From an uncultured Candidatus Peribacteria bacterium (lineage in GTDB: Bacteria; Patescibacteriota; Gracilibacteria; BD1-5; UBA2023): a stretch of 64,000 nucleotides of DNA. The stretch lies in NCBI GenBank assembly GCA_964618565.1, contig CAZUBA010000002.1:20029-84028 (forward strand). The letters run 5' to 3'. Below are positions 27,195-55,116 of the stretch, in pieces. The notes below the pieces were generated by a model. The model was not told where the DNA came from and did no database searches. It saw nothing but the letters and a program-made list of their open reading frames with translations. Position 1 is the stretch's first letter. Each line of letters opens with the position of its first letter. The position numbers and the translations under genes were made by a program.

Positions 27195-27791
27195 ATGAGA
27201 AAAATCATTATTCTGACTTTCATGACGCTCGACGGGGTCATGCAGGCGCCTGGCGGACCCGAAGAAGATACATCAAACGGTTTCAAATACGGAGGGTGGA
27301 CTGTCCCCTATTTCGATGAATTCGCTGGGAAAGCCATGGAAGAACAGATGAAGCAACCTTTCAGTTTGCTCCTGGGCAGAAAGACTTTTGAGATATTCGC
27401 ATCTTACTGGCCGATGCATGCGAATGAATGGCCCGGCATTAACGAGTCCACCAAGTATGTGGTTTCTAATACGCTTACAAAGCATGATTGGGAAAATTCT
27501 ATCTTCATATCGGGTGATGTGGTAAAGAAAATAAAAGAACTGAAAAATCAAGCCGGTCCCGATATGCACGTGTATGGTAGCAGCAATCTCATACAGACAC
27601 TTTTGAAGCATGATCTCGCAGATGAGCTTTGGCTCAAGATATTCCCAATCACACTTGGTTCGGGAAAACGTTTATTTGGTGAGGGTACTATTCCTGCCGC
27701 TTTCACGCTTGTGGAATCCAAGACATCGCCCAGCGGGGTTATCATTGCTTCTTATGAGCGTGCCGGAGAAGTTGAAACGGGGTCTTTTTAG
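27195..27791 (+). CDS. dihydrofolate-reductase-like protein (RibD C-terminal domain family)
   Basis: MRKIIILTFMTLDGVMQAPGGPEED...YGSSNLIQTLLKHDLADELWLKIFPITLGSGKRLF. GC-rich with no TGA codon. TAG stop. Confidence 0.85.
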   Translation: MRKIIILTFMTLDGVMQAPGGPEEDTSNGFKYGGWTVPYFDEFAGKAMEEQMKQPFSLLLGRKTFEIFASYWPMHANEWPGINESTKYVVSNTLTKHDWENSIFISGDVVKKIKELKNQAGPDMHVYGSSNLIQTLLKHDLADELWLKIFPITLGSGKRLFGEGTIPAAFTLVESKTSPSGVIIASYERAGEVETGSF

Positions 27792-37024: not shown

Positions 37025-38542
37025 TTATTTTTTTGGCAGAATAGTTGTAATGGCTTCTGTAATCCTTGCAAATGTCTCATCAAAATCTCAAGAAGCTCTT
37101 AAATAATCCCTTCATTCTTGAGGATTAGCTTGTCTCATAGCATTCAAGGTTTCATCGAATTCATCCATTCAAGGAACAATGATTCATTTTTCTCTTAATT
37201 CTGCTCAGAATTGTGCCACATGTGATGTCTCTAAAAATATAACTGGAGTATCTGAGTGAAAAGTTATAAAATCATGATAATCAATTCCGCTCTTTTTTCC
37301 AAATTGCTTATACCTAAGCCACGGAGCCACAGCCGATGCCGTATGAGGATCTATTCAATGATTATATTCTTGTCAAAATTCTTTAATAGCATTTAATCTT
37401 TCAGTATCTGTTGAAGTTGTCGAAATAAAGGTTTCCTGTATTTTTCTCAGAATTTCAGTACCAACTTCAAACTTACCATTTTTAGAAAGCTCATCATAAA
37501 ATCATTTTATTCTAGCATTATCAAATCAGCATGCATCAAAAAGCATCCTTTCAAAATTGCTTGATTTTGCTATATCCATAGATGGAGCGTTTGTGACTTG
37601 TACAAAATCTTTTCAGTCTCTCTTGGGAGGCTCATAAATTCAAGTCTTGAAAAATTTATGCAGCATGTCATTTTCATTTGTTGCAACCACAATTTTTTTG
37701 ATGGGCAGTCACATTTTTTTAGCATAATATCAAGCCAACGCATCTCAAAAATTTCAAGATGGGACAGAAAATATTACTTCATCTCAATTTTTAATGGCTC
37801 AATTTTTCAATAATTCAGCATATGCCCTGAAATAATAGACAACCTGCGCTAAAATTCTTGCTATATTTATAGAATTAAAAGAAGTTATATTATGCTCCTT
37901 TTTAAAATCTACAAATTCTGGACCATTAACCTTTTTTACAATATCTTGAAGCGGATCAAAAGGCTTATCTGCCAATAAAGTTAGGGCATTTGGATTATCA
38001 ACAATCCCATTTACAGCTTGTAAGCCTTGGACGTGAGAAGGTCAAACATTAGGCAGCATAAAAACAGACCTGATATTTGTTCATTTTACTCCGCTATGAG
38101 CTGCGTTTATAGTATCTCATGAAGATGCTCATAAGACATTTACAATCTTTCATTTTGTCAATACAGAAAGTAATCTAGGAAGAAATTCCAAGGCCACATT
38201 CTTAAAAGCAAAAGTAGGACCATATCACAAATGAAGCGAATGCAGATTTGTATCTCATATTTGTTTCACAGGAGTAATTTCACTTCTATGCCACTGCTCT
38301 CAATAAGCATCATTGATTATCTTTTTCAATTCTTCTCAAGAAACTCAAAAATCAAATCTTAATAATATGCTTAAGGCCACTTCTTGATATGTTTTCCCAG
38401 CAAGATGCTGAATCTCCTCTGATGTTACTTGAGGAAAATCGGTAATGGACCACAATCCTCATGATAATGGCTGACTTGTTTGTATTGCACCGGATAAATT
38501 TAATCTTTCGTCAGACCTAGAATCAGATAATAGATAATTCAT
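37025..38542 (-). CDS. thrC: threonine synthase
   Basis: 505 aa. Motifs GGLW, GPTFAFKNVAL, SSGDTINAA, PSGNFGD. Frame checked by triplets. Confidence 0.85.
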
Positions 38543-38870
38543 ACTCGAGTTTTACTAATTAAAATGTTATTCTCTTTTACATATTTATATTCAATAGTCA
38601 AAAGTATTTTGGATTTTAAGATGCCTCAAGAAAATATTGACTTAATGAGATAAATAAATAAAAGGTATTAATTGATTTATTTTTTAAACAAAAAAGCCAA
38701 CTTAATAAAAAATAAAATAATAAGTTGTTTTCAAAGGAGATTAAAGATATCGAACAAAAACAAATATTTCTCTAGCTGGGAGAAGAAAGGAATGATGGAA
38801 ATTTCAGCAGTCGCGGGGAAACTATCTTTAGGTGCAACTAACAGAATCAAAAACCGAAAGGAGAATGAGT

Positions 38871-39212
38871 ATGTCAAGAATCTGCGGCTTAGTAGCAATT
38901 TTCGTTTTCTGTCTGATCCTGCCTTTGCAGGCAATCGCCGGCGAGCTTGAGGACGGGAAAATCAGCAATGGCCTGAAAAATGCGCCGGATGTGTCCATCC
39001 TTCAGAGCGAACCATCAGAGCCGATCGTGGTTGCAGTAGGAAACGCCTGGGACTACGCATCCGGAACCATAATGCAGCCGTGCGGTTGCTGGGGATACAT
39101 CCCTCCTTCAACCGCAGTCGAGCCCAAGTGCTTCAGTGGCTACGTAGTGCTTGCCGCATGTAACACCTATTGCTCAGGGGGAGGATACTCATATGGCTAC
39201 AGATGCATGTAG
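38871..39212 (+). CDS. secreted cysteine-rich small protein (GC-rich, TGA-free)
   Basis: RBS aaggag lies 7 nt upstream. Signal peptide MSRICGLVAIFVFCLILPLQAIA. C-terminal CGCWGY...C...C...C...C. TAG stop. Confidence 0.7.
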   Translation: MSRICGLVAIFVFCLILPLQAIAGELEDGKISNGLKNAPDVSILQSEPSEPIVVAVGNAWDYASGTIMQPCGCWGYIPPSTAVEPKCFSGYVVLAACNTYCSGGGYSYGYRCM

Positions 39213-39307
39213 TGTCCGCCTAGAGCAAAATAATGAAAAGTGATTTTATCAGCCTGCAGAAACTGTAGTGCAGTAAAACAGAAGAAGTTTGGCAACATGT
39301 CGAAATC

Positions 39308-39337
39308 GGGGCCTAGTCTTGCACTAGGCCCCTTTCT
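39308..39337 (+). terminator. GC-rich rho-independent terminator
   Basis: Stem ggggcctagt/actaggcccc with loop cttgc, followed by TTTCT. Confidence 0.7.
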
Positions 39338-39405
39338 ATTATGTCCCCCGTTTCTTAGGGGCAAGCTGAAACGAACTTGAGAGACTTGCACCCTTTAAAC
39401 TCCGA

Positions 39406-39433
39406 TTGACATTTTAATAAAAGGCTTTATAAT
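39406..39433 (+). promoter_or_regulatory. sigma70-like promoter
   Basis: TTGACA-N16-TATAAT. The -10 element ends 27 nt before the ATG at 39460. Confidence 0.5.
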
Positions 39434-39459
39434 TATTGTGATTTTAAATAAGCCATTAT

Positions 39460-39912
39460 ATGAAAAATGAAATAATAGAGAGATTAAGGGCGACTGAATG
39501 CGAGTGGCTGGAACTAGAAGATTCCATGGAAATTGATCAAGAAAACCGTAAGCCTGCCTCCTCGGAATGCCCTGAAACAATTATTGAGTTGACCGAAAGA
39601 ACAAGAGAAAGGACTCTTCGACAACTAGCCCTGATTGCCTGACTATCGGAATTGTTACCAAAAAGGCAGAAAGATGATCTCAATCCTCCAGATGTATTCG
39701 ACAGCATAGAATATATTTCAGCACAGGCGAAAAAATTACAAAAGCAGATACTTGATGCAGTGGCTAGTGATGTTAAGCAGATACTAGACAATGTAATGTT
39801 TAAAGCGTCATTGCTTTGATTACCAAGATGAATCAAAGATGGAGAAACAAGATTTTCAACTATTATTACAGAAATAGAAGCGCTTTGAGAAGACGAAAAT
39901 ATTCCTTCCTAA
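39460..39912 (+). CDS. 150-aa protein of unknown family, paralog A
   Basis: Frame checked. 4 TGA-Gly codons. Shares IIERLRATECEW and LLGLPRGIKDGETRFSTIITEIE with the 51750..52202 product. Confidence 0.65.
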
Positions 39913-40094
39913 AGGTGCATTTCTTTGTAAGTACATGCCCAATCAAAGTTCAAGATTAAATAAAGTTCCGGTAACAGCCGGAATTTTCAATTTTAAGCGA
40001 CGTGGGCTTATATCTCAATGATCAAATATCTTTTGACTACAACTGATATAAATGATAGAATTCGTATAATTTAAATTATTAACAATAACTAATT

Positions 40095-41105
40095 ATGAAA
40101 AATGCATTAATCTTATTTATAGTATTATTGTTTTGAGTATTTAATCTCACAAACACATATTCTGATTCAAATTCAGCTGTAAATAGAAATTCATCAAAAA
40201 AAGATGCTTATAAAGAAATCTTCAAAAAACAATTATGAGATAAGCTAACAAAATTAAATGATCAGAAGAAAAATTCATTAGTTACTAACATTGATATTTT
40301 ATTGAACAAATATAAATGAAATTCTAAAAAAATTAATGTATCTGTACAACTGACTGCGCTTAAGGAATTGATTGTTGAAGCAAATCAAAAAACAACAGGT
40401 GGCTGAGATATCACCAAATCCAATAACGAACCTTATGCCGATATGCTTAAAACATATGATATCAAAATATATAGCAATGGTATTAATCTTGAATTAAAAG
40501 ATGGAACTGCCAAGGGTTTGGAAAATGTGAAAAAGGATTTAGAAAAGGTCAGATTTCTATATTGAACAACTTCTACTGAGAAATATATGTTTGGCAGATC
40601 GTTTTTGGGTTTTACAGATAATTCTGATATGAAAAATATCTATAACTTATGCTTAGATAATTTAACTCCAGATACCAAATATACATTTTCAATGCTCTTA
40701 TTTCATATTAAAGATAAACAAAACGGGAATCAAGAAATAAGAAATGATTTCGCTCCAGGTTATTTTATAACAAAAAATGATAATAGCACGATATCATGTT
40801 CTAATAAATTAAATTTGCCAATTGATAATATTGATAATGTTAAAATCAAATCAGAAAATACAACAGCAAAAATTGATTGGGAATTCAGTAAGGGCGCAAG
40901 GGCAGAAATATATATATTCGATTCTCCAATACAGTTCAATAACAGTCAAAAATCAATAAATAAAATAAATTTGGATTATAATAAGAACTGATTATATAGC
41001 GCTGAGTTTAAAAATCTTCAAAAAGGAAAAAAATATTACTATTTTATAACTCAGGATGTCGAAAAGGCTGACATAATTAAAACTTGAGAATTTACAATCG
41101 ATTAA
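40095..41105 (+). CDS. secreted hypothetical protein (336 aa)
   Basis: N-terminal hydrophobic signal MKNALILFIVLLFGVFNL. The track ORF 40587.. is in the same frame. Confidence 0.6.
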
Positions 41106-44415: not shown

Positions 44416-45126
44416 ATGGATACCCGAAATTCTAAGATTTTAGGATGGTCAGTATTTGCTTTAACTCTTTTGGCGTACATCCCTCTTGGTCTCGGCAGCT
44501 GGAATAAACCTGCAGAATTCAATATGCCTAGCTTTCTGGCATGGGTTCTATTGGCAGGACAATTCCTTTATGCAACCCACTCTCAAGGTTTTGATGGTTG
44601 GAGGATGCCCTTCGGATACTTCATCGGCAACATAGGAGTTGTGATAGTCATGTTGTATCGAGGCGGATATACGATGAATCTGACATTTACTGAGCATATC
44701 CTATTCGGAGGTACGATTCTTGTAGGAACAATATGGTTTATATGCTACCAGCGTTCGAAGAAAAGCAATCCTAGGATACTATACTTCGGAAACATCCTCG
44801 TCGATATGATATCCTTCTACCCGCAAATTAAGCAATTTGCAGGAGTGCATGATCCTGTCAGCCTCAAGACACTATTAGGCTGGGCAATGTTTCTCCTTAT
44901 CGCAGTCATTAATGTATTCGTGGTAGAAAGATTCATGAAGAAGATAGCAATGAAAGATAGAGAATATGAATTTGCCTTTAATCGAAAAAAGAGAGTCATG
45001 TCGATTTTGGAGGAAAGCCTATTCTCAATCGAGCAATCAATCTTCATCGGTGGCCTGCTCGTATTAATGCTGTTTTGAAAACATGAACTGATTAGTCCTC
45101 GCTCTAGCGAGGACTTTTCTTATTAA
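44416..45126 (+). CDS. multi-pass membrane protein with PQ-loop-like motif (GC-rich); extended 16 codons past a fossil TGA stop
   Basis: RBS aggagg. The 220-codon TGA-free ORF contains ISFYPQIKQF. The TGA at 45076-78 would read as Gly in this host. The next stop is TAA at 45124-26. Confidence 0.7.
45094..45118 (+). terminator. rho-independent terminator lying inside the read-through extension
   Basis: Stem agtcctcgc/gcgaggact with loop tcta, followed by TTTT. Confidence 0.7.
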
Positions 45127-46691: not shown

Positions 46692-46724
46692 AAAAAATAG
46701 ATAGCTTAAGCTATCTATTTTTTA
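46692..46724 (-). terminator. palindromic terminator
   Basis: aatagatagctt/aagctatctatt flanked by A/T runs. Confidence 0.6.
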
Positions 46725-46738
46725 AAGTCAAAGAGTAA

Positions 46739-50767: not shown

Positions 50768-51028
50768 AATAATGATGTTATGAAACAATAATTATATCCT
50801 TAGCTATTCAATTATCCAATTAATTTATGAATAAAAATTCAAATTGTACAAGATACGCAGTTGAATTTGCAATCATGAATTGCTTCATAATATGATTTGA
50901 CATAATAATTAATAAAAATATAAATACTGAAACAAAAAGGTTTAAAAAGGAGGAGGTCTGGTTAAAGGAAAAGCTATGCGATGATTGGTTCATTAACCTT
51001 TACGGGCAGTTTTTGAAGGGGGTGCTTC

Positions 51029-51574
51029 ATGGACAAGAAAGCGTGGGATGAGTTTTTTCAAGCCAAGGAAATGTCCAGGTTCATGCTGGAAAACAAATTC
51101 AGGAATCTGGAAGCCATGATGAAAGAGGAGCTCGAAACGAGGGAAACTTACGAAGGGCTTCGGCAATCCAGCTTCCAATTCGAGTTCAAGCTGAAGCCCT
51201 TGGCAAAAATGGGGAGCCTCATCACAGACGTGAAGTCGATCTACTACTGCATCATCGGGAAATTCAACCACGATAAGAGCTTCGAACACTGCAAAGCTAT
51301 GATTGCTGAATTTGAGAAGAAGCTCAAGGAGCTCATCTACTTCGAAGAATGCTGCAAGATGAAGAAGTTCCTCAGGGCCGATGCCCAGTACGAGGAGATG
51401 GAAGCGTTGGGGCTCTTCGAGCTCGGCGACAAAGAACTCGACAAAATCTCTCTGCTGAGGGGTCTCGTCATGCGGTGCGCCTGCTGCTTCAACTTCATGG
51501 AAAGCTCTTCGCTGATCGAGGAATACGAAGGGCTCATGGTGAAAATCCGCCTTTATGAACCAGTTCCCGCGTAG
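51029..51574 (+). CDS. GC-rich, TGA-free, Cys-rich helical protein (181 aa), unknown family
   Basis: Intact in the standard code. G-rich RBS (gaaggggg). TAG stop followed by a strong terminator. Strong GC3 bias, unlike the neighbouring genes. Confidence 0.7.
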   Translation: MDKKAWDEFFQAKEMSRFMLENKFRNLEAMMKEELETRETYEGLRQSSFQFEFKLKPLAKMGSLITDVKSIYYCIIGKFNHDKSFEHCKAMIAEFEKKLKELIYFEECCKMKKFLRADAQYEEMEALGLFELGDKELDKISLLRGLVMRCACCFNFMESSSLIEEYEGLMVKIRLYEPVPA

Positions 51575-51597
51575 CTTCCTACCCAACTCAGATTAAC

Positions 51598-51626
51598 CAA
51601 AACCCCGCATAATGCGGGGTTTTGTT
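51598..51626 (+). terminator. GC-rich rho-independent terminator
   Basis: Stem ccccgca/tgcgggg with loop taa, followed by TTTT. Confidence 0.75.
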
Positions 51627-51695
51627 ATTTCATCATAAGCAGAACCTTAAAAATGCAGCCTAAATATGAACTACACACAGCAATGAGCTTGAGTA

Positions 51696-51723
51696 TTGAC
51701 TTTTTCAACAAAAGCACTATAGT
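51696..51723 (+). promoter_or_regulatory. sigma70-like promoter
   Basis: TTGACT-N16-TATAGT. The -10 element ends 27 nt before the ATG at 51750, the same geometry as at 39406. Confidence 0.5.
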
Positions 51724-51749
51724 CAGAGCATTAATTCTTCTTTATCTGC

Positions 51750-52202
51750 ATGGAAGTCCAAATTGTCAAAAGACTTAAAGAGGCTGAAGAAAAATGGCTC
51801 CTGTCAAATGCTGCTATTGAAAATATAAATTTGCAGATAGTCCAGCTGTTGGAGAAAAGGCCTAGAGAAAGAAGAAAGATGGTATTGACAATACAAAAGC
51901 AAACTAAAGACAAAATCATTGAGCAATTGAATATCATACTTTTATTGCAGAAAATCATATCACAAGAAACAATTATGTCTATTCCGGAAAGCATATTTTC
52001 GGATGTGAATTGCCTCACTGAAGAGGCTAAGAAAATACTCGATCTCATAGAAGACACTGACTCTGATGCTCTGGATGAATTGCTTGAAAAGATAACTTTC
52101 AGAGTTTTTTTCTTAGGGGTTCCTATTTGAGCAAAAGGAAGTGAAACAAGATTCTCTGAAATGATTTCAAAAATTGAATCGAATTTATCAAATATTGATT
52201 AA
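51750..52202 (+). CDS. 150-aa protein of unknown family, paralog B
   Basis: The track ORF continues through TGA 52128-30 to TAA 52200-02. Motifs IVKRLKEAEEKW and FLGVPIGAKGSETRFSEMISKIE. Confidence 0.65.
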
Positions 52203-52298
52203 TTCCCTACCCTATTCCCTTAAAGATGAATCCTTTTATCACTGTTATATGTAGATTCCATTCAGTATACGGATCTGACGATATATAAATATTTACGT

Positions 52299-53063
52299 TT
52301 ATTTGATATTAAAAATAAAATCCTTTAAAGCTGCCATTGAGCCTATATAGGCTTTAGTGATTTCAATGAGCGTTCATTCTGGTTCAAGAGCTTTTCAAAT
52401 ATTTATATACCACTTATTTTGCTTATCTCTATAAACATAAATAGGGATAATGGGGCTATTGTTTTTGATTGCCATCTTTGCAAATCATGGCTTTATTCAC
52501 TCATGCCAAGTCTTTATAGAGTCCAGACGAGTTGAATAAAACCTCTTATCTTTGGTATCATATGCTGTTTCTGGAATAAAATCTTGTTTTCAGCTTCCCC
52601 ACCAATTTCAATATGGAAATATTATAATATTATTATCTTTGAGTCAGTTTAGGATCCGTTTAACATCATGAAAATTCCGCTTTTGGGCAATCTGATTGTT
52701 AGGTACATTCAAATGAATAGGATATCAATCTATTAAAATGCCAAATAGAGCATGAGAAAATCTTGAATGAATGGTATAAATAAGATCAGCCATTCTTGAG
52801 TCTATGGCCATATCGCTATCTCATCTGAATACCACTTTTGATTTTTTTATTCATCTGACTTCCAATACATTTTTTAATGCTCAAAAATCATCCGGCATAG
52901 TAAAAATTTTGTGCCGTAAATCAGAATGAGGTGTTATATGATTTGGTGCAAATATTACAAATTTTCAACTTTTATTTAAATCTGAAACTTTTTCCAATGT
53001 ATTATTGTCATCTCAAACAAAAACTATTTTTGAAACAAATGAATCAATGTTCTCTATTCACAT
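52299..53063 (-). CDS. lysophospholipid acyltransferase (PlsC-like)
   Basis: FAPNHITPHSD (NHxxxxD) and IIIFPYGNWWG. 254 aa. Confidence 0.7.
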
Positions 53064-55083: not shown

Positions 55084-55116
55084 AAAAAAGAACCTGAATT
55101 TTCAGGTTCTTTTTTG
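55084..55116. terminator. bidirectional terminator
   Basis: Stem gaacctgaa/ttcaggttc flanked by A and T runs. Confidence 0.65.

What the first reader, a model, noticed from the sequence alone, without database searches (positions are those of the whole stretch)
38790..39912. Repeated two-gene cassette, copy 1: GC-rich foreign-looking gene plus terminator, then a promoter driving a 150-aa paralog
The same architecture occurs here and at 50940..52202:
1. A GC-rich ORF with no TGA codon, ending in TAG.
2. A GC-rich hairpin terminator.
3. A near-consensus promoter, TTGAC(A/T)-N16-TATA(A/G)T, whose -10 element ends exactly 27 nt before an ATG.
4. A 453-nt gene encoding a 150-aa protein.

The two 150-aa proteins are clear but divergent paralogs:
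- N-terminus: I(I/V)xRLxxxExxW.
- C-terminus: LG(L/V)PxGxKxxETRFSxxIxxIE.

Both paralogs need TGA=Gly. The upstream partners are unrelated to each other: a secreted Cys-rich peptide here and a 181-aa cytoplasmic Cys-rich protein at the other site.

I do not recognise the paralog family. The pattern resembles variable cargo next to a conserved partner, such as effector/immunity, toxin/antidote or a preferred insertion site. That reading is inference only.
Basis: partly seen in the sequence, partly recalled or inferred. Interest (0 to 1): 0.75.

Follow-up and report, generated by a model that had tools for sequence, protein, structure and literature searches.

The report
Orphan paralogs beside foreign GC-rich genes
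In a bacterium that reads TGA as glycine, the only two copies of a very rare 150-aa helical protein each sit just downstream of a separately transcribed, compositionally foreign, cysteine-rich gene that public annotations miss; the pattern is real, but whether the neighbours work together is unresolved.

Summary
pA (39460-39912) and pB (51750-52202) are true paralogs: 25% identity, Smith-Waterman z about 20. Each has a near-consensus promoter whose -10 ends 27 nt before the ATG.

Each follows a GC-rich gene that is TGA-free, ends in TAG and carries a strong hairpin terminator. Both arrangements recur in an independent sample, so they are not assembly chimeras.

The upstream genes uA and uB look foreign:
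- GC3 is 0.60/0.73, against 0.18-0.32 in native genes.
- They have Shine-Dalgarno sites, which native genes lack.
- They have no TGA, although 64.5% of native Gly codons are TGA.
- Cys is 7.1%/3.9%, against 0.55% native.
- No homolog turned up in any collection searched.

pA and pB are native in codon usage. They are acidic, predicted helical bundles with a conserved C-terminal L-G-x-P-x-G-x4-ETRFS motif.

Among 1.84 billion representative proteins the family has one other member. It lies in a 51%-GC contig that also reads TGA as sense, is fused to ankyrin repeats, and has an unrelated, non-foreign upstream neighbour.

Terminator plus promoter separate the neighbours, so they are not an operon. 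No toxin, immunity, integron or phage signature was found.

Most likely these are native orphan paralogs next to independently acquired genes in permissive divergent intergenic regions. A functional cargo/partner link remains possible.

The parts
38865..39212 (+). uA: a foreign-looking gene for a secreted Cys-rich small protein. The probable start is 38871, giving 113 aa, preceded by an AAAGGAG Shine-Dalgarno site at 38857-38863.
   Evidence: - GC by codon position is 0.49/0.49/0.60; there is no TGA and the stop is TAG.
- P(no TGA | native usage) is 1.4e-6.
- There are 8 Cys in 113 aa, against 0.55% in native proteins.
- The N-terminus MSRICGLVAIFVFCLILPLQAIA looks like a signal peptide (read by eye).
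- The ORF is intact in L012 with one change, TGG->TGA. A 1-nt indel there breaks the antisense ORF that gene callers prefer.
- No homolog was found.
39308..39332 (+). Intrinsic-terminator-like hairpin after uA, followed by a second small hairpin at 39343-39359.
   Evidence: 10-bp stem with 7 GC pairs, then TTTCTATTAT.
39406..39433 (+). pA promoter, TTGACA-N16-TATAAT. The -35/spacer block TTGACATTTTAATAAAAG is shared with pB and with the L005 homolog.
   Evidence: -: 12/12 match to consensus.
- the extended motif is essentially confined to the three family genes.
- The -10 ends 27 nt before the ATG.
39460..39912 (+). pA: 150-aa acidic helical protein, family member 1, with 4 in-frame TGA=Gly codons.
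   Evidence: -: paralogy with pB.
- native-like synonymous codon usage.
- pI 4.6.
- no SD, like native genes.
- Already deposited as EKE27276.1 / UniRef K2F7Y5, a hypothetical protein.
39966..39983 (.). Hairpin TTCCGGTAACAGCCGGAA with flanking T/A runs, downstream of pA. It is a likely terminator.
   Evidence: One search lists it on the minus strand. Read on the plus strand, it is followed by TTTTCAATTTT.
50897..50924 (+). Candidate promoter of uB, TTGACA-N16-TATAAA, placed just before the rise in GC.
   Evidence: Read directly. The scanner did not list it because it requires T at -10 position 6.
51029..51574 (+). uB: a foreign-looking gene for a 181-aa cytoplasmic, helical, Cys-rich protein, preceded by AAGGGGG.
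   Evidence: - GC by codon position is 0.47/0.27/0.73, a strong coding periodicity.
- There is no TGA (P 7e-4).
- There are 7 Cys (3.9%).
- The 3' end is conserved in L003.
- No homolog was found.
- It is absent from public gene calls.
51598..51624 (+). Intrinsic-terminator-like hairpin after uB.
   Evidence: a 13-bp perfect inverted repeat, CAAAACCCCGCAT/ATGCGGGGTTTTG, followed by TTATTT.
51696..51723 (+). pB promoter, TTGACT-N16-TATAGT. The leader carries ATTCTTCTTT (51734-51743), which the L005 homolog also has.
   Evidence: The -10 ends 27 nt before the ATG.
51750..52202 (+). pB: 150-aa acidic helical protein, family member 2, with 1 in-frame TGA=Gly codon.
   Evidence: -: paralogy with pA.
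- AF2 model: pLDDT 77, pTM 0.70, five helices plus a short beta element at the ETRFS motif.
- pI 5.0.
- Deposited as EKE27267.1 / K2FZB5.
- The allele in L003 keeps the motif and shows a synonymous GGA->TGA change.

Best explanation
Each site holds two independent transcription units that happen to be neighbours.

pA and pB are native, anciently diverged paralogs of a tiny family. So far it has been seen only in bacteria that read TGA as a sense codon. The proteins are acidic, cytoplasmic helical bundles of about 150 aa, with a conserved C-terminal L-G-x-P-x-G-x4-E-T-R-F-S-x5-I-E motif. Each is expressed from an inherited sigma-70-type promoter through a short leader that lacks an SD. I infer that they act through protein-protein contacts as an adaptor or partner. 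This rests on their acidity and on the fusion of the third family member to ankyrin repeats.

uA and uB are real protein-coding genes acquired horizontally. They are compatible with either genetic code because they contain no TGA. Each brought or kept its own Shine-Dalgarno site and GC-rich terminator. They landed in the divergent intergenic regions upstream of pA and pB, where an insertion disrupts nothing.

On this reading the repeated adjacency reflects permissive landing sites plus chance, not an operon or a dedicated pair.

Shown: paralogy, foreignness, separate promoters and terminators, rarity of the family. Inferred: the adaptor role and the absence of functional coupling.
For: Native versus foreign:
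- Synonymous codon usage of pA/pB fits native genes. That of uA/uB does not.
- GC3 is 0.30/0.32 for pA/pB and 0.60/0.73 for uA/uB.
- 38 of 41 native genes, and also pA and pB, match at most 3 of 6 positions of AGGAGG upstream. uB has AAGGGGG (5/6). uA has AAAGGAG 7 nt before its probable start at 38871.
- TGA is 64.5% of native Gly codons but 0 of 20 in uA+uB.

Separate units:
- A hairpin terminator and a 10-12/12 promoter lie between the genes at both sites.
- The promoter core and the 27-28-nt distance to the ATG recur in the L005 homolog. The promoter therefore belongs to the paralog, not to the cargo.

Other family member:
- The L005 gene 10001-10792 is 40%/33% identical to pA/pB.
- It has TGA at the same motif glycine.
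- It carries ankyrin repeats (Ank_2, 6e-11).
- It follows an unrelated 66-aa ORF of ordinary composition.

General HGT pattern:
- RibD_C (27195-27791; TGA-free, TAG stop, GC3 0.49) and the SD-led gene 44416-45126 are also foreign-looking.
- Both also sit to the right of a minus-strand gene, and neither has a paralog beside it.

Precedent:
- TGA-free, code-11-compatible phage genomes targeted by Gracilibacteria CRISPR spacers have been described (PMC10746230).

Protein properties:
- pI is 4.6-5.0.
Against: - Both of the only two paralogs have such a neighbour.
- uA and uB form a more extreme class than the other foreign-looking genes. They share high Cys, TAG stops and strong terminators.
- The terminator-to-(-35) spacing is nearly the same at the two sites, 73 and 71 nt.
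- If only uA and uB are counted against about 11 divergent intergenic regions, chance adjacency is about 0.02. That figure is my own rough estimate from the ORF map.
- The intergenic spacers between terminator and promoter are GC-richer (0.35-0.46) than native intergenic DNA.
- The absence of any homolog of uA or uB among 5.8 billion protein clusters is odd for ordinary recent HGT. The search is word-indexed, however, and would miss distant relatives.
Confidence: 0.45

Rival explanations
1. Functional two-gene module. A variable, Cys-rich cargo protein (uX) works with a conserved acidic helical partner (pX). The partner could be a chaperone or adaptor, an antidote or immunity-like binder, or a regulator of the cargo. 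The two are kept adjacent by selection although transcribed separately.
For: - 2 of 2 paralogs are paired, co-oriented, with near-identical geometry.
- Both cargos share unusual traits: Cys at 7.1%/3.9% against 0.55%, GC3-rich codons, SD, TAG stop.
- Both pairs are retained in a second sample.
- Small acidic helical proteins are typical binders, chaperones or immunity proteins (general knowledge).
Against: - A terminator and a separate promoter lie between the genes.
- uA has a signal-peptide-like N-terminus and would leave the cytoplasm, while pA stays inside. uB has no such N-terminus.
- The L005 homolog has a different, non-foreign, non-Cys-rich neighbour, with a 216-nt gap.
- No toxin, immunity or defence model matches.
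Confidence: 0.27
2. Targeted capture site. The region upstream of the pX promoter is a hotspot where code-neutral gene cassettes (ORF plus terminator) are inserted or exchanged by a site-specific or homology-driven mechanism. This would be analogous to, but not the same as, an integron platform.
For: - There is a sharp compositional boundary near the promoter at both sites.
- The cassettes have similar sizes (about 635 and 755 nt) and similar right-hand spacing.
- A 26-nt imperfect inverted repeat brackets the uB ORF (50971-50996 / 51552-51577).
- A pool of TGA-free mobile DNA exists for these bacteria (PMC10746230).
Against: - No recombinase or transposase was seen among the ORFs near the sites that I scanned.
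- The two sites share no boundary sequence of 11 nt or more.
- The hairpins are plain perfect stems with T-runs. Read by eye against the attC core sites, they match only 6/7 and 5/7.
- No comparable inverted repeat flanks uA.
- Both strains sampled carry the same cassettes.
- The contig breaks near the sites are explained by hairpin palindromes.
Confidence: 0.12
3. The GC-rich segments are not protein-coding. They would be structured RNAs or compositional noise with accidental ORFs.
For: - Gene callers never call uA or uB.
- GC-rich DNA gives long ORFs in several frames.
- The uB transcript folds with z -4.2.
Against: - uB has a textbook GC3 periodicity of 0.47/0.27/0.73.
- uA has an SD and a signal-peptide-like N-terminus.
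- The indel in L012 spares uA but breaks the alternative ORFs.
- Rfam finds nothing except terminator look-alikes.
- uA folds with z -1.5.
- The z-score for uB includes the terminator hairpin.
Confidence: 0.04
4. Assembly chimera. GC-rich DNA from another organism was joined into an AT-rich genome at the hairpins.
For: - NCBI contig AMFJ01000504 starts 94 nt before pB.
- Logan contig L002 starts 131 nt before pA.
Against: - Independent assemblies span the junctions. L001 (SRR446577) and L012 (SRR944699) cover both sides of uA.
- L003 (SRR944699, a 95%-identical strain) covers the uB 3' end, terminator, promoter and pB.
- Other contig ends also fall on hairpin palindromes.
Confidence: 0.02

Closest known systems
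Code-11-compatible (TGA-free) mobile DNA associated with Gracilibacteria/Absconditabacteria (mBio 2023, PMC10746230)
   Same: [quoted passage not shown] They are found in association with code-25 bacteria.
   Different: These are single chromosomal ORFan genes. They have no phage hallmark genes, no PHROG hit and no match in phage or IMG/VR collections.
Ordinary horizontally acquired genes or islets in intergenic regions
   Same: There is a compositional and codon-usage shift, foreign translation signals, and placement in divergent intergenic DNA. The RibD_C gene at 27195-27791 is a clear example in the same window.
   Different: uA and uB have no detectable homolog anywhere. They are very Cys-rich. 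Both lie next to the only two members of one orphan family.
Integron gene cassettes
   Same: Short single-ORF units of foreign composition, each ending in a hairpin-forming inverted repeat and placed next to a conserved element.
   Different: No integrase was found. The hairpins are simple terminators without attC architecture. The cassettes have their own promoter or SD. There are two separate single insertions rather than an array.
Type II toxin-antitoxin and polymorphic toxin/immunity pairs
   Same: Small adjacent genes, one variable and one conserved. The conserved one is a small acidic helical protein.
   Different: The pair is not co-transcribed and no family matches. The conserved gene is the downstream one, and one 'cargo' is Sec-exported.
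Four-helix-bundle adaptor or chaperone proteins (FliS-like, BAG-like, ESCRT-III/PspA-like helical hairpins)
   Same: A predicted long helical hairpin followed by shorter helices, with an acidic pI.
   Different: The Foldseek matches are all non-significant (best E 0.16-0.22, TM 0.3-0.57). This is a resemblance only.

Membership tests
New 'pX' family (pA, pB, L005 homolog) | A helical domain of about 150 aa with N-terminal L-x3-E-x2-W-L and C-terminal L-x2-P-x-G-x4-E-T-R-F-S-x5-I-E | tested here: met
   The alignments show 27 invariant columns across the three sequences. Pairwise z-scores are 20-40.
New 'pX' family (pA, pB, L005 homolog) | Own promoter T[TA]GAC[AT]TTTT[AC]A..AAAA with the -10 ending 27-28 nt before the ATG, and no SD | tested here: met
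   The motif was derived from these same three sequences, so the test is partly circular.
Type II toxin-antitoxin | Two genes co-transcribed as one operon, usually abutting or overlapping | tested here: not met
   There are 247 nt and 175 nt between the genes, containing a terminator hairpin and a separate promoter.
Type II toxin-antitoxin | A recognisable toxin fold/family and an antitoxin DNA-binding domain | tested here: not met
   No significant Pfam, NCBIfam or PADLOC match; the best hits fall far below the curated cut-offs. The pX proteins are acidic.
Polymorphic toxin / immunity | A toxin with a conserved N-terminal trafficking part and a variable C-terminus, with the cognate immunity gene immediately downstream varying with it | tested here: not met
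   uA and uB share nothing. It is the downstream gene that is conserved.
Integron cassette | An adjacent IntI tyrosine recombinase and attI site | tested here: not met
   No recombinase domain was found in the ORFs flanking either site that were scanned. Not every ORF of the window was scanned.
Integron cassette | An attC site: an imperfect inverted repeat with RYYYAAC / GTTRRRY core sites and extrahelical bases | tested here: not met
   The hairpins are perfect 10-13-bp stems followed by T-runs. Read by eye, the flanks at site B match the core sites only 6/7 and 5/7.
Bacteriocin plus immunity | A secreted peptide with a leader, plus a co-transcribed and usually membrane-bound immunity protein | tested here: inconclusive
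   uA has a signal-peptide-like N-terminus and 6 Cys in the mature part. pA is soluble, acidic and separately transcribed, and uB has no signal peptide. No bacteriocin family matched.
Prophage or phage moron | Phage hallmark genes or phage homologs nearby | tested here: not met
   PHROGs gave only non-significant hits with E of 0.069 or more. There was no match in 50,697 phage records or in IMG/VR.
H-NS-like xenogeneic silencer | An oligomerising helical N-terminal domain plus a basic C-terminal DNA-binding domain | tested here: not met
   The helical N-terminal part is present. The proteins are acidic throughout, with pI 4.6-5.0, and no motif matches.
Known structured RNA (Rfam) | A covariance-model match at the gathering score | tested here: not met
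   Searches returned only sub-threshold terminator look-alikes.

The most novel reading that the evidence does not exclude
The pX loci are dedicated docking sites or partner genes for a circulating pool of code-neutral cargo genes. These cargo genes are TGA-free, SD-led and Cys-rich, and move among bacteria with a reassigned stop codon. That would be a previously undescribed cargo-plus-partner system with no recognisable recombinase, in which the acidic helical pX protein binds, chaperones or regulates whichever foreign Cys-rich protein sits upstream.
Probability: 0.12. Interest if true: 0.75.

Novelty: new member of a known kind. Interest (0 to 1): 0.4.

Why it matters
The finding has three modest uses.

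1. Annotation. In genomes with recoded stop codons, standard gene callers can miss real, compositionally foreign genes. They may even call the antisense strand instead. uA and uB are absent from every public gene call I could query.

2. A clean example of code-neutral acquisition. These genes are TGA-free, SD-led and GC3-rich, and they sit inside a TGA=Gly genome. One strain variant already carries a TGG->TGA change that is harmless only under the host's code. This bears on how gene flow crosses a genetic-code barrier.

3. A new orphan family. It has three members among 1.84 billion representative proteins and a sharply conserved ETRFS motif and promoter. If more members turn up, that will decide whether the link to foreign neighbours is biology or coincidence.

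Tried and rejected
Profile libraries:
- Pfam, NCBIfam, PHROGs and PADLOC gave nothing significant for pA, pB, uA or uB.

Sequence searches:
- The 5.8-billion-cluster search returned only self hits and one allele for pX. It returned nothing for uA or uB.
- The exhaustive HMMER search returned one extra homolog.
- GTDB genomes, JGI metagenomes and IMG/VR scans gave nothing new.
- A degenerate DNA pattern allowing TGA=Gly gave only chance hits.
- Phage and plasmid tblastn gave nothing. One hit at E 0.3 to a Klebsiella DUF4157 gene was dismissed.
- PDB sequence searches gave nothing.

Structure:
- The pB model was usable, but Foldseek against PDB and BFVD gave only generic helical bundles with E of 0.16 or more.
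- The single-sequence uB model had pLDDT 51 and was not searched.

RNA:
- Rfam gave nothing.

Ideas rejected:
- Contig breaks as evidence of cassette polymorphism. Other contig ends also sit on hairpin palindromes, which points to an assembler artefact.
- A diversity-generating retroelement as the cause of the divergent patch in pB of L003. The substitutions are not adenine-specific (inspection).
- Integron attC sites. The hairpins are simple terminators.
- An H-NS-like silencer. The proteins are acidic.
- Homology of the whole upstream regions between loci. Only the promoter and leader are convincingly shared, and global alignment z-scores are 1.5-2.5.
- A donor like the 51%-GC code-25 contig L005. 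It is neither supported nor excluded: codon fit is slightly better, and the probability of no TGA under its usage is about 0.15.

Other:
- In one search I mistyped the tail of the L005 protein. This was corrected and re-run.
Full report
**Source and genetic code.** The window is 32% GC. Long ORFs exist only if TGA is read as a sense codon; native genes carry up to 66 in-frame TGA. The two 150-aa proteins are already deposited as hypothetical proteins ACD_3C00228G0001 and ACD_3C00230G0001 of an 'uncultured bacterium (gcode 4)'. Reading TGA as Gly, it supplies 64.5% of Gly codons in 24 native genes.

**Checking the observation.**
- uA (38865-39212) and uB (51029-51574) have GC 0.53 and 0.49, no TGA, and TAG stops.
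- Terminator-like hairpins lie at 39308-39332 and 51598-51624.
- Promoters lie at 39406-39433 (TTGACA-16-TATAAT, 12/12) and 51696-51723 (TTGACT-16-TATAGT, 10/12).
- Both -10 elements end 27 nt before the ATG of a 453-nt gene.
- pA and pB are 25% identical over 147 residues (E 3e-15).
- The Smith-Waterman score is 157 against 34.7 +/- 6.2 for 2000 shuffles. It is still z 9.7 when the conserved C-terminal motif is removed.
- They are the only two copies in the window.
- uA and uB are unrelated to each other.

**Not an assembly artefact.** Some public contigs start just before pA or pB, which raised the possibility of a chimera. An assembly of a different sample (SRR944699) gives two contigs that argue against it. 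L012 matches window 38258-40350 at 99.3%, across thrC, uA, pA and the next gene. L003 matches 51414-52418 at 95.4%, across the uB 3' end, terminator, promoter and pB. Other contig ends in these assemblies also sit on hairpin palindromes (55084-55113 and 46697-46726). The breaks are therefore assembler behaviour, not evidence of variable cassettes.

**The upstream genes are real and foreign-looking.**
- uB has GC by codon position of 0.47/0.27/0.73. That is a strong coding signature, opposite to native genes, whose GC3 is 0.18-0.32.
- uA has an AAAGGAG site 7 nt before its second ATG (38871) and an N-terminus that looks like a Sec signal peptide (MSRICGLVAIFVFCLILPLQAIA, read by eye).
- In L012 a 1-nt indel at 38818 leaves uA intact but disrupts the antisense ORF that gene callers prefer.
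- 38 of 41 native genes match at most 3 of 6 positions of AGGAGG upstream, whereas uA and uB have Shine-Dalgarno-like sites.
- Given native usage, the absence of TGA has probability 1.4e-6 for uA (13 Gly) and 7e-4 for uB (7 Gly).
- Cys is 7.1% and 3.9%, against 0.55% in native proteins.
- Synonymous codon usage fits native genes poorly.
- Neither protein has a detectable relative. Searches covered four profile libraries, the 5.8-billion-cluster search, phage and plasmid records, IMG/VR and PDB sequences.
- Neither exact product exists in the public gene-call collection. Standard callers miss them.
- Rfam finds no RNA family. Folding z-scores are -1.5 for uA and -4.2 for uB, the latter including the terminator.

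**The paralogs are native and belong to a very rare family.**
- pA and pB have native-like GC3 (0.30 and 0.32), native-like codon usage, no SD, and in-frame TGA.
- A profile search of 1.84 billion representative proteins returned only pA, a pB allele, and one further protein, P0004 (E 7e-16).
- P0004 is the TGA-truncated call of a 263-aa gene at L005:10001-10792. L005 is a 51%-GC contig that also needs TGA as sense.
- Its first 150 or so residues are 40% and 33% identical to pA and pB. The rest is ankyrin repeats (Ank_2, 6e-11).
- TGA encodes the invariant glycine of the P-x-G motif in pA, pB and this homolog. The pB allele in L003 has GGA->TGA at another glycine. Both support TGA=Gly.
- The three proteins share 27 invariant columns, concentrated in L-x2-P-x-G-x4-E-T-R-F-S-x5-I-E.
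- They are acidic, with pI 4.6-5.0.
- An AlphaFold2 model of pB (4-sequence alignment, pLDDT 77, pTM 0.70) gives five helices, with a short beta element at the motif.
- Foldseek found only generic helical bundles, with best E 0.16-0.22.

**The promoter belongs to the paralog.** The L005 gene has TAGACA-16-TATCGT ending 28 nt before its ATG. It shares the -35/spacer block T[TA]GAC[AT]TTTT[AC]A..AAAA with pA and pB. It also shares a 10-nt leader block, ATTCTTCTTT, with pB. Global alignment of the whole upstream regions is only weakly better than shuffles, z 1.5-2.5. Each paralog is thus an autonomous unit with an inherited promoter, and the foreign DNA ends upstream of it.

**Is the adjacency functional?**

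For a link:
- Both paralogs have such a neighbour.
- The two neighbours share an unusual profile.
- The terminator-to-(-35) distances are 73 and 71 nt.

Against a link:
- A terminator and a promoter separate the genes.
- One cargo is exported and the other is cytoplasmic.
- The L005 homolog follows an unrelated 66-aa ORF of ordinary composition, after a 216-nt gap.
- The window holds two more foreign-looking genes that also sit to the right of a minus-strand gene with no paralog nearby. These are RibD_C at 27195-27791 and the SD-led gene at 44416-45126.

With about 11 divergent intergenic regions, I estimate the chance of the double adjacency at roughly 0.02 (two insertions) to 0.1 (four insertions). 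No recombinase, shared boundary sequence or attC-like structure was found. TGA-free, code-11-compatible phage genomes linked to Gracilibacteria are documented (PMC10746230), so a pool of code-neutral DNA is plausible as a source.

**Verdict.** The best-supported reading, at about 0.45, is native orphan paralogs sitting beside independently acquired, separately transcribed foreign genes in permissive intergenic sites. I infer that the paralogs are acidic protein-binding adaptors. A functional cargo/partner module is at about 0.27 and a targeted capture site at about 0.12. With only three family loci available, neither can be excluded. Toxin-antitoxin, polymorphic toxin/immunity, integron, prophage and RNA-gene readings each fail at least one defining feature tested here.

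Noticed in passing
window 52040-52300, compared with L003: There is a patch of high divergence: about 22 substitutions in the last 160 nt of pB, plus indels downstream. The preceding 626 nt (uB 3' end, terminator, promoter, pB 5' two-thirds) differ at only 3 positions. This looks like a recombination import or a locally fast-evolving C-terminal region. The substitutions are not adenine-specific, so it is not DGR-like.
   Followed up: partly
window 39050 (uA codon 60), compared with L012: The strain variant has TGG->TGA. That is Trp->Gly under the host's code but a premature stop under the standard code. It is a possible first step in adapting a code-neutral foreign gene to the host code, or it reflects relaxed selection. 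L012 also lacks 2 nt (39326-39327) in the 3' arm of the uA terminator.
   Followed up: partly
window 27195-27791: This is another TGA-free gene with a TAG stop and higher GC (GC3 0.49). It encodes a RibD_C-domain protein (Pfam 4.6e-24). It is probably horizontally acquired from a standard-code organism, and it lies in a divergent intergenic region with no pX paralog nearby.
   Followed up: partly
window 44416-45126: This 236-aa ORF has a hydrophobic, membrane-like sequence (by eye), GC 0.41 and a single TGA. It is the only gene in the native set with a perfect AGGAGG Shine-Dalgarno site. It has no Pfam match and may also be foreign.
   Followed up: no
whole window: Native genes essentially lack Shine-Dalgarno sequences: 38 of 41 match at most 3 of 6 positions of AGGAGG. 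They use TGA for 64.5% of Gly codons and contain only 0.55% Cys.
   Followed up: yes
window 38677-39192 (minus strand) and 51029-51574: Public gene calls (Logan and ENA assemblies) call an antisense ORF across uA and nothing for uB. Neither uA nor uB exists in the 15-billion-protein collection. This is an annotation blind spot for compositionally foreign genes in recoded genomes.
   Followed up: yes
window 50971-50996 and 51552-51577: A 26-nt imperfect inverted repeat (77% complementary) brackets the uB ORF almost exactly, from the 5' leader to across the stop codon. The two arms pair in the minimum-free-energy fold of the transcript. It could stabilise the mRNA, be a relic of terminal repeats, or be chance; my rough estimate of chance is about 0.1. 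uA has no counterpart.
   Followed up: partly
window 50977-51016: The uB leader holds short upstream ORFs whose ends depend on the genetic code. ATG-CGA-TGA is a 2-codon ORF under the standard code. The ATG at 50981 is in frame with uB and is separated from it only by one TGA (51014-51016). Under code 25 a 197-aa N-terminally extended uB is therefore possible.
   Followed up: no
L005:9848-9875: The sequence CAAAAC-N16-GTTTTG lies 70 nt upstream of the -35 of the L005 homolog. Its outer stem matches the uB terminator (CAAAACCCCGCAT...ATGCGGGGTTTTG), which lies 71 nt upstream of the pB -35. It could be a decayed homologous hairpin or coincidence. Alignment support for the upstream region is weak, z 2.5.
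   Followed up: partly
L005 (Logan SRR22387871 contig, 67 kb): This 51%-GC contig nevertheless needs TGA as a sense codon. TGA makes up about 9% of Gly codons in eight genes. This shows that the reassignment is not confined to AT-rich genomes.
   Followed up: partly
window 55084-55113 and 46697-46726: Perfect AT-flanked palindromic hairpins lie between convergent genes and coincide with the ends of public contigs. Assemblers break at these terminators.
   Followed up: yes
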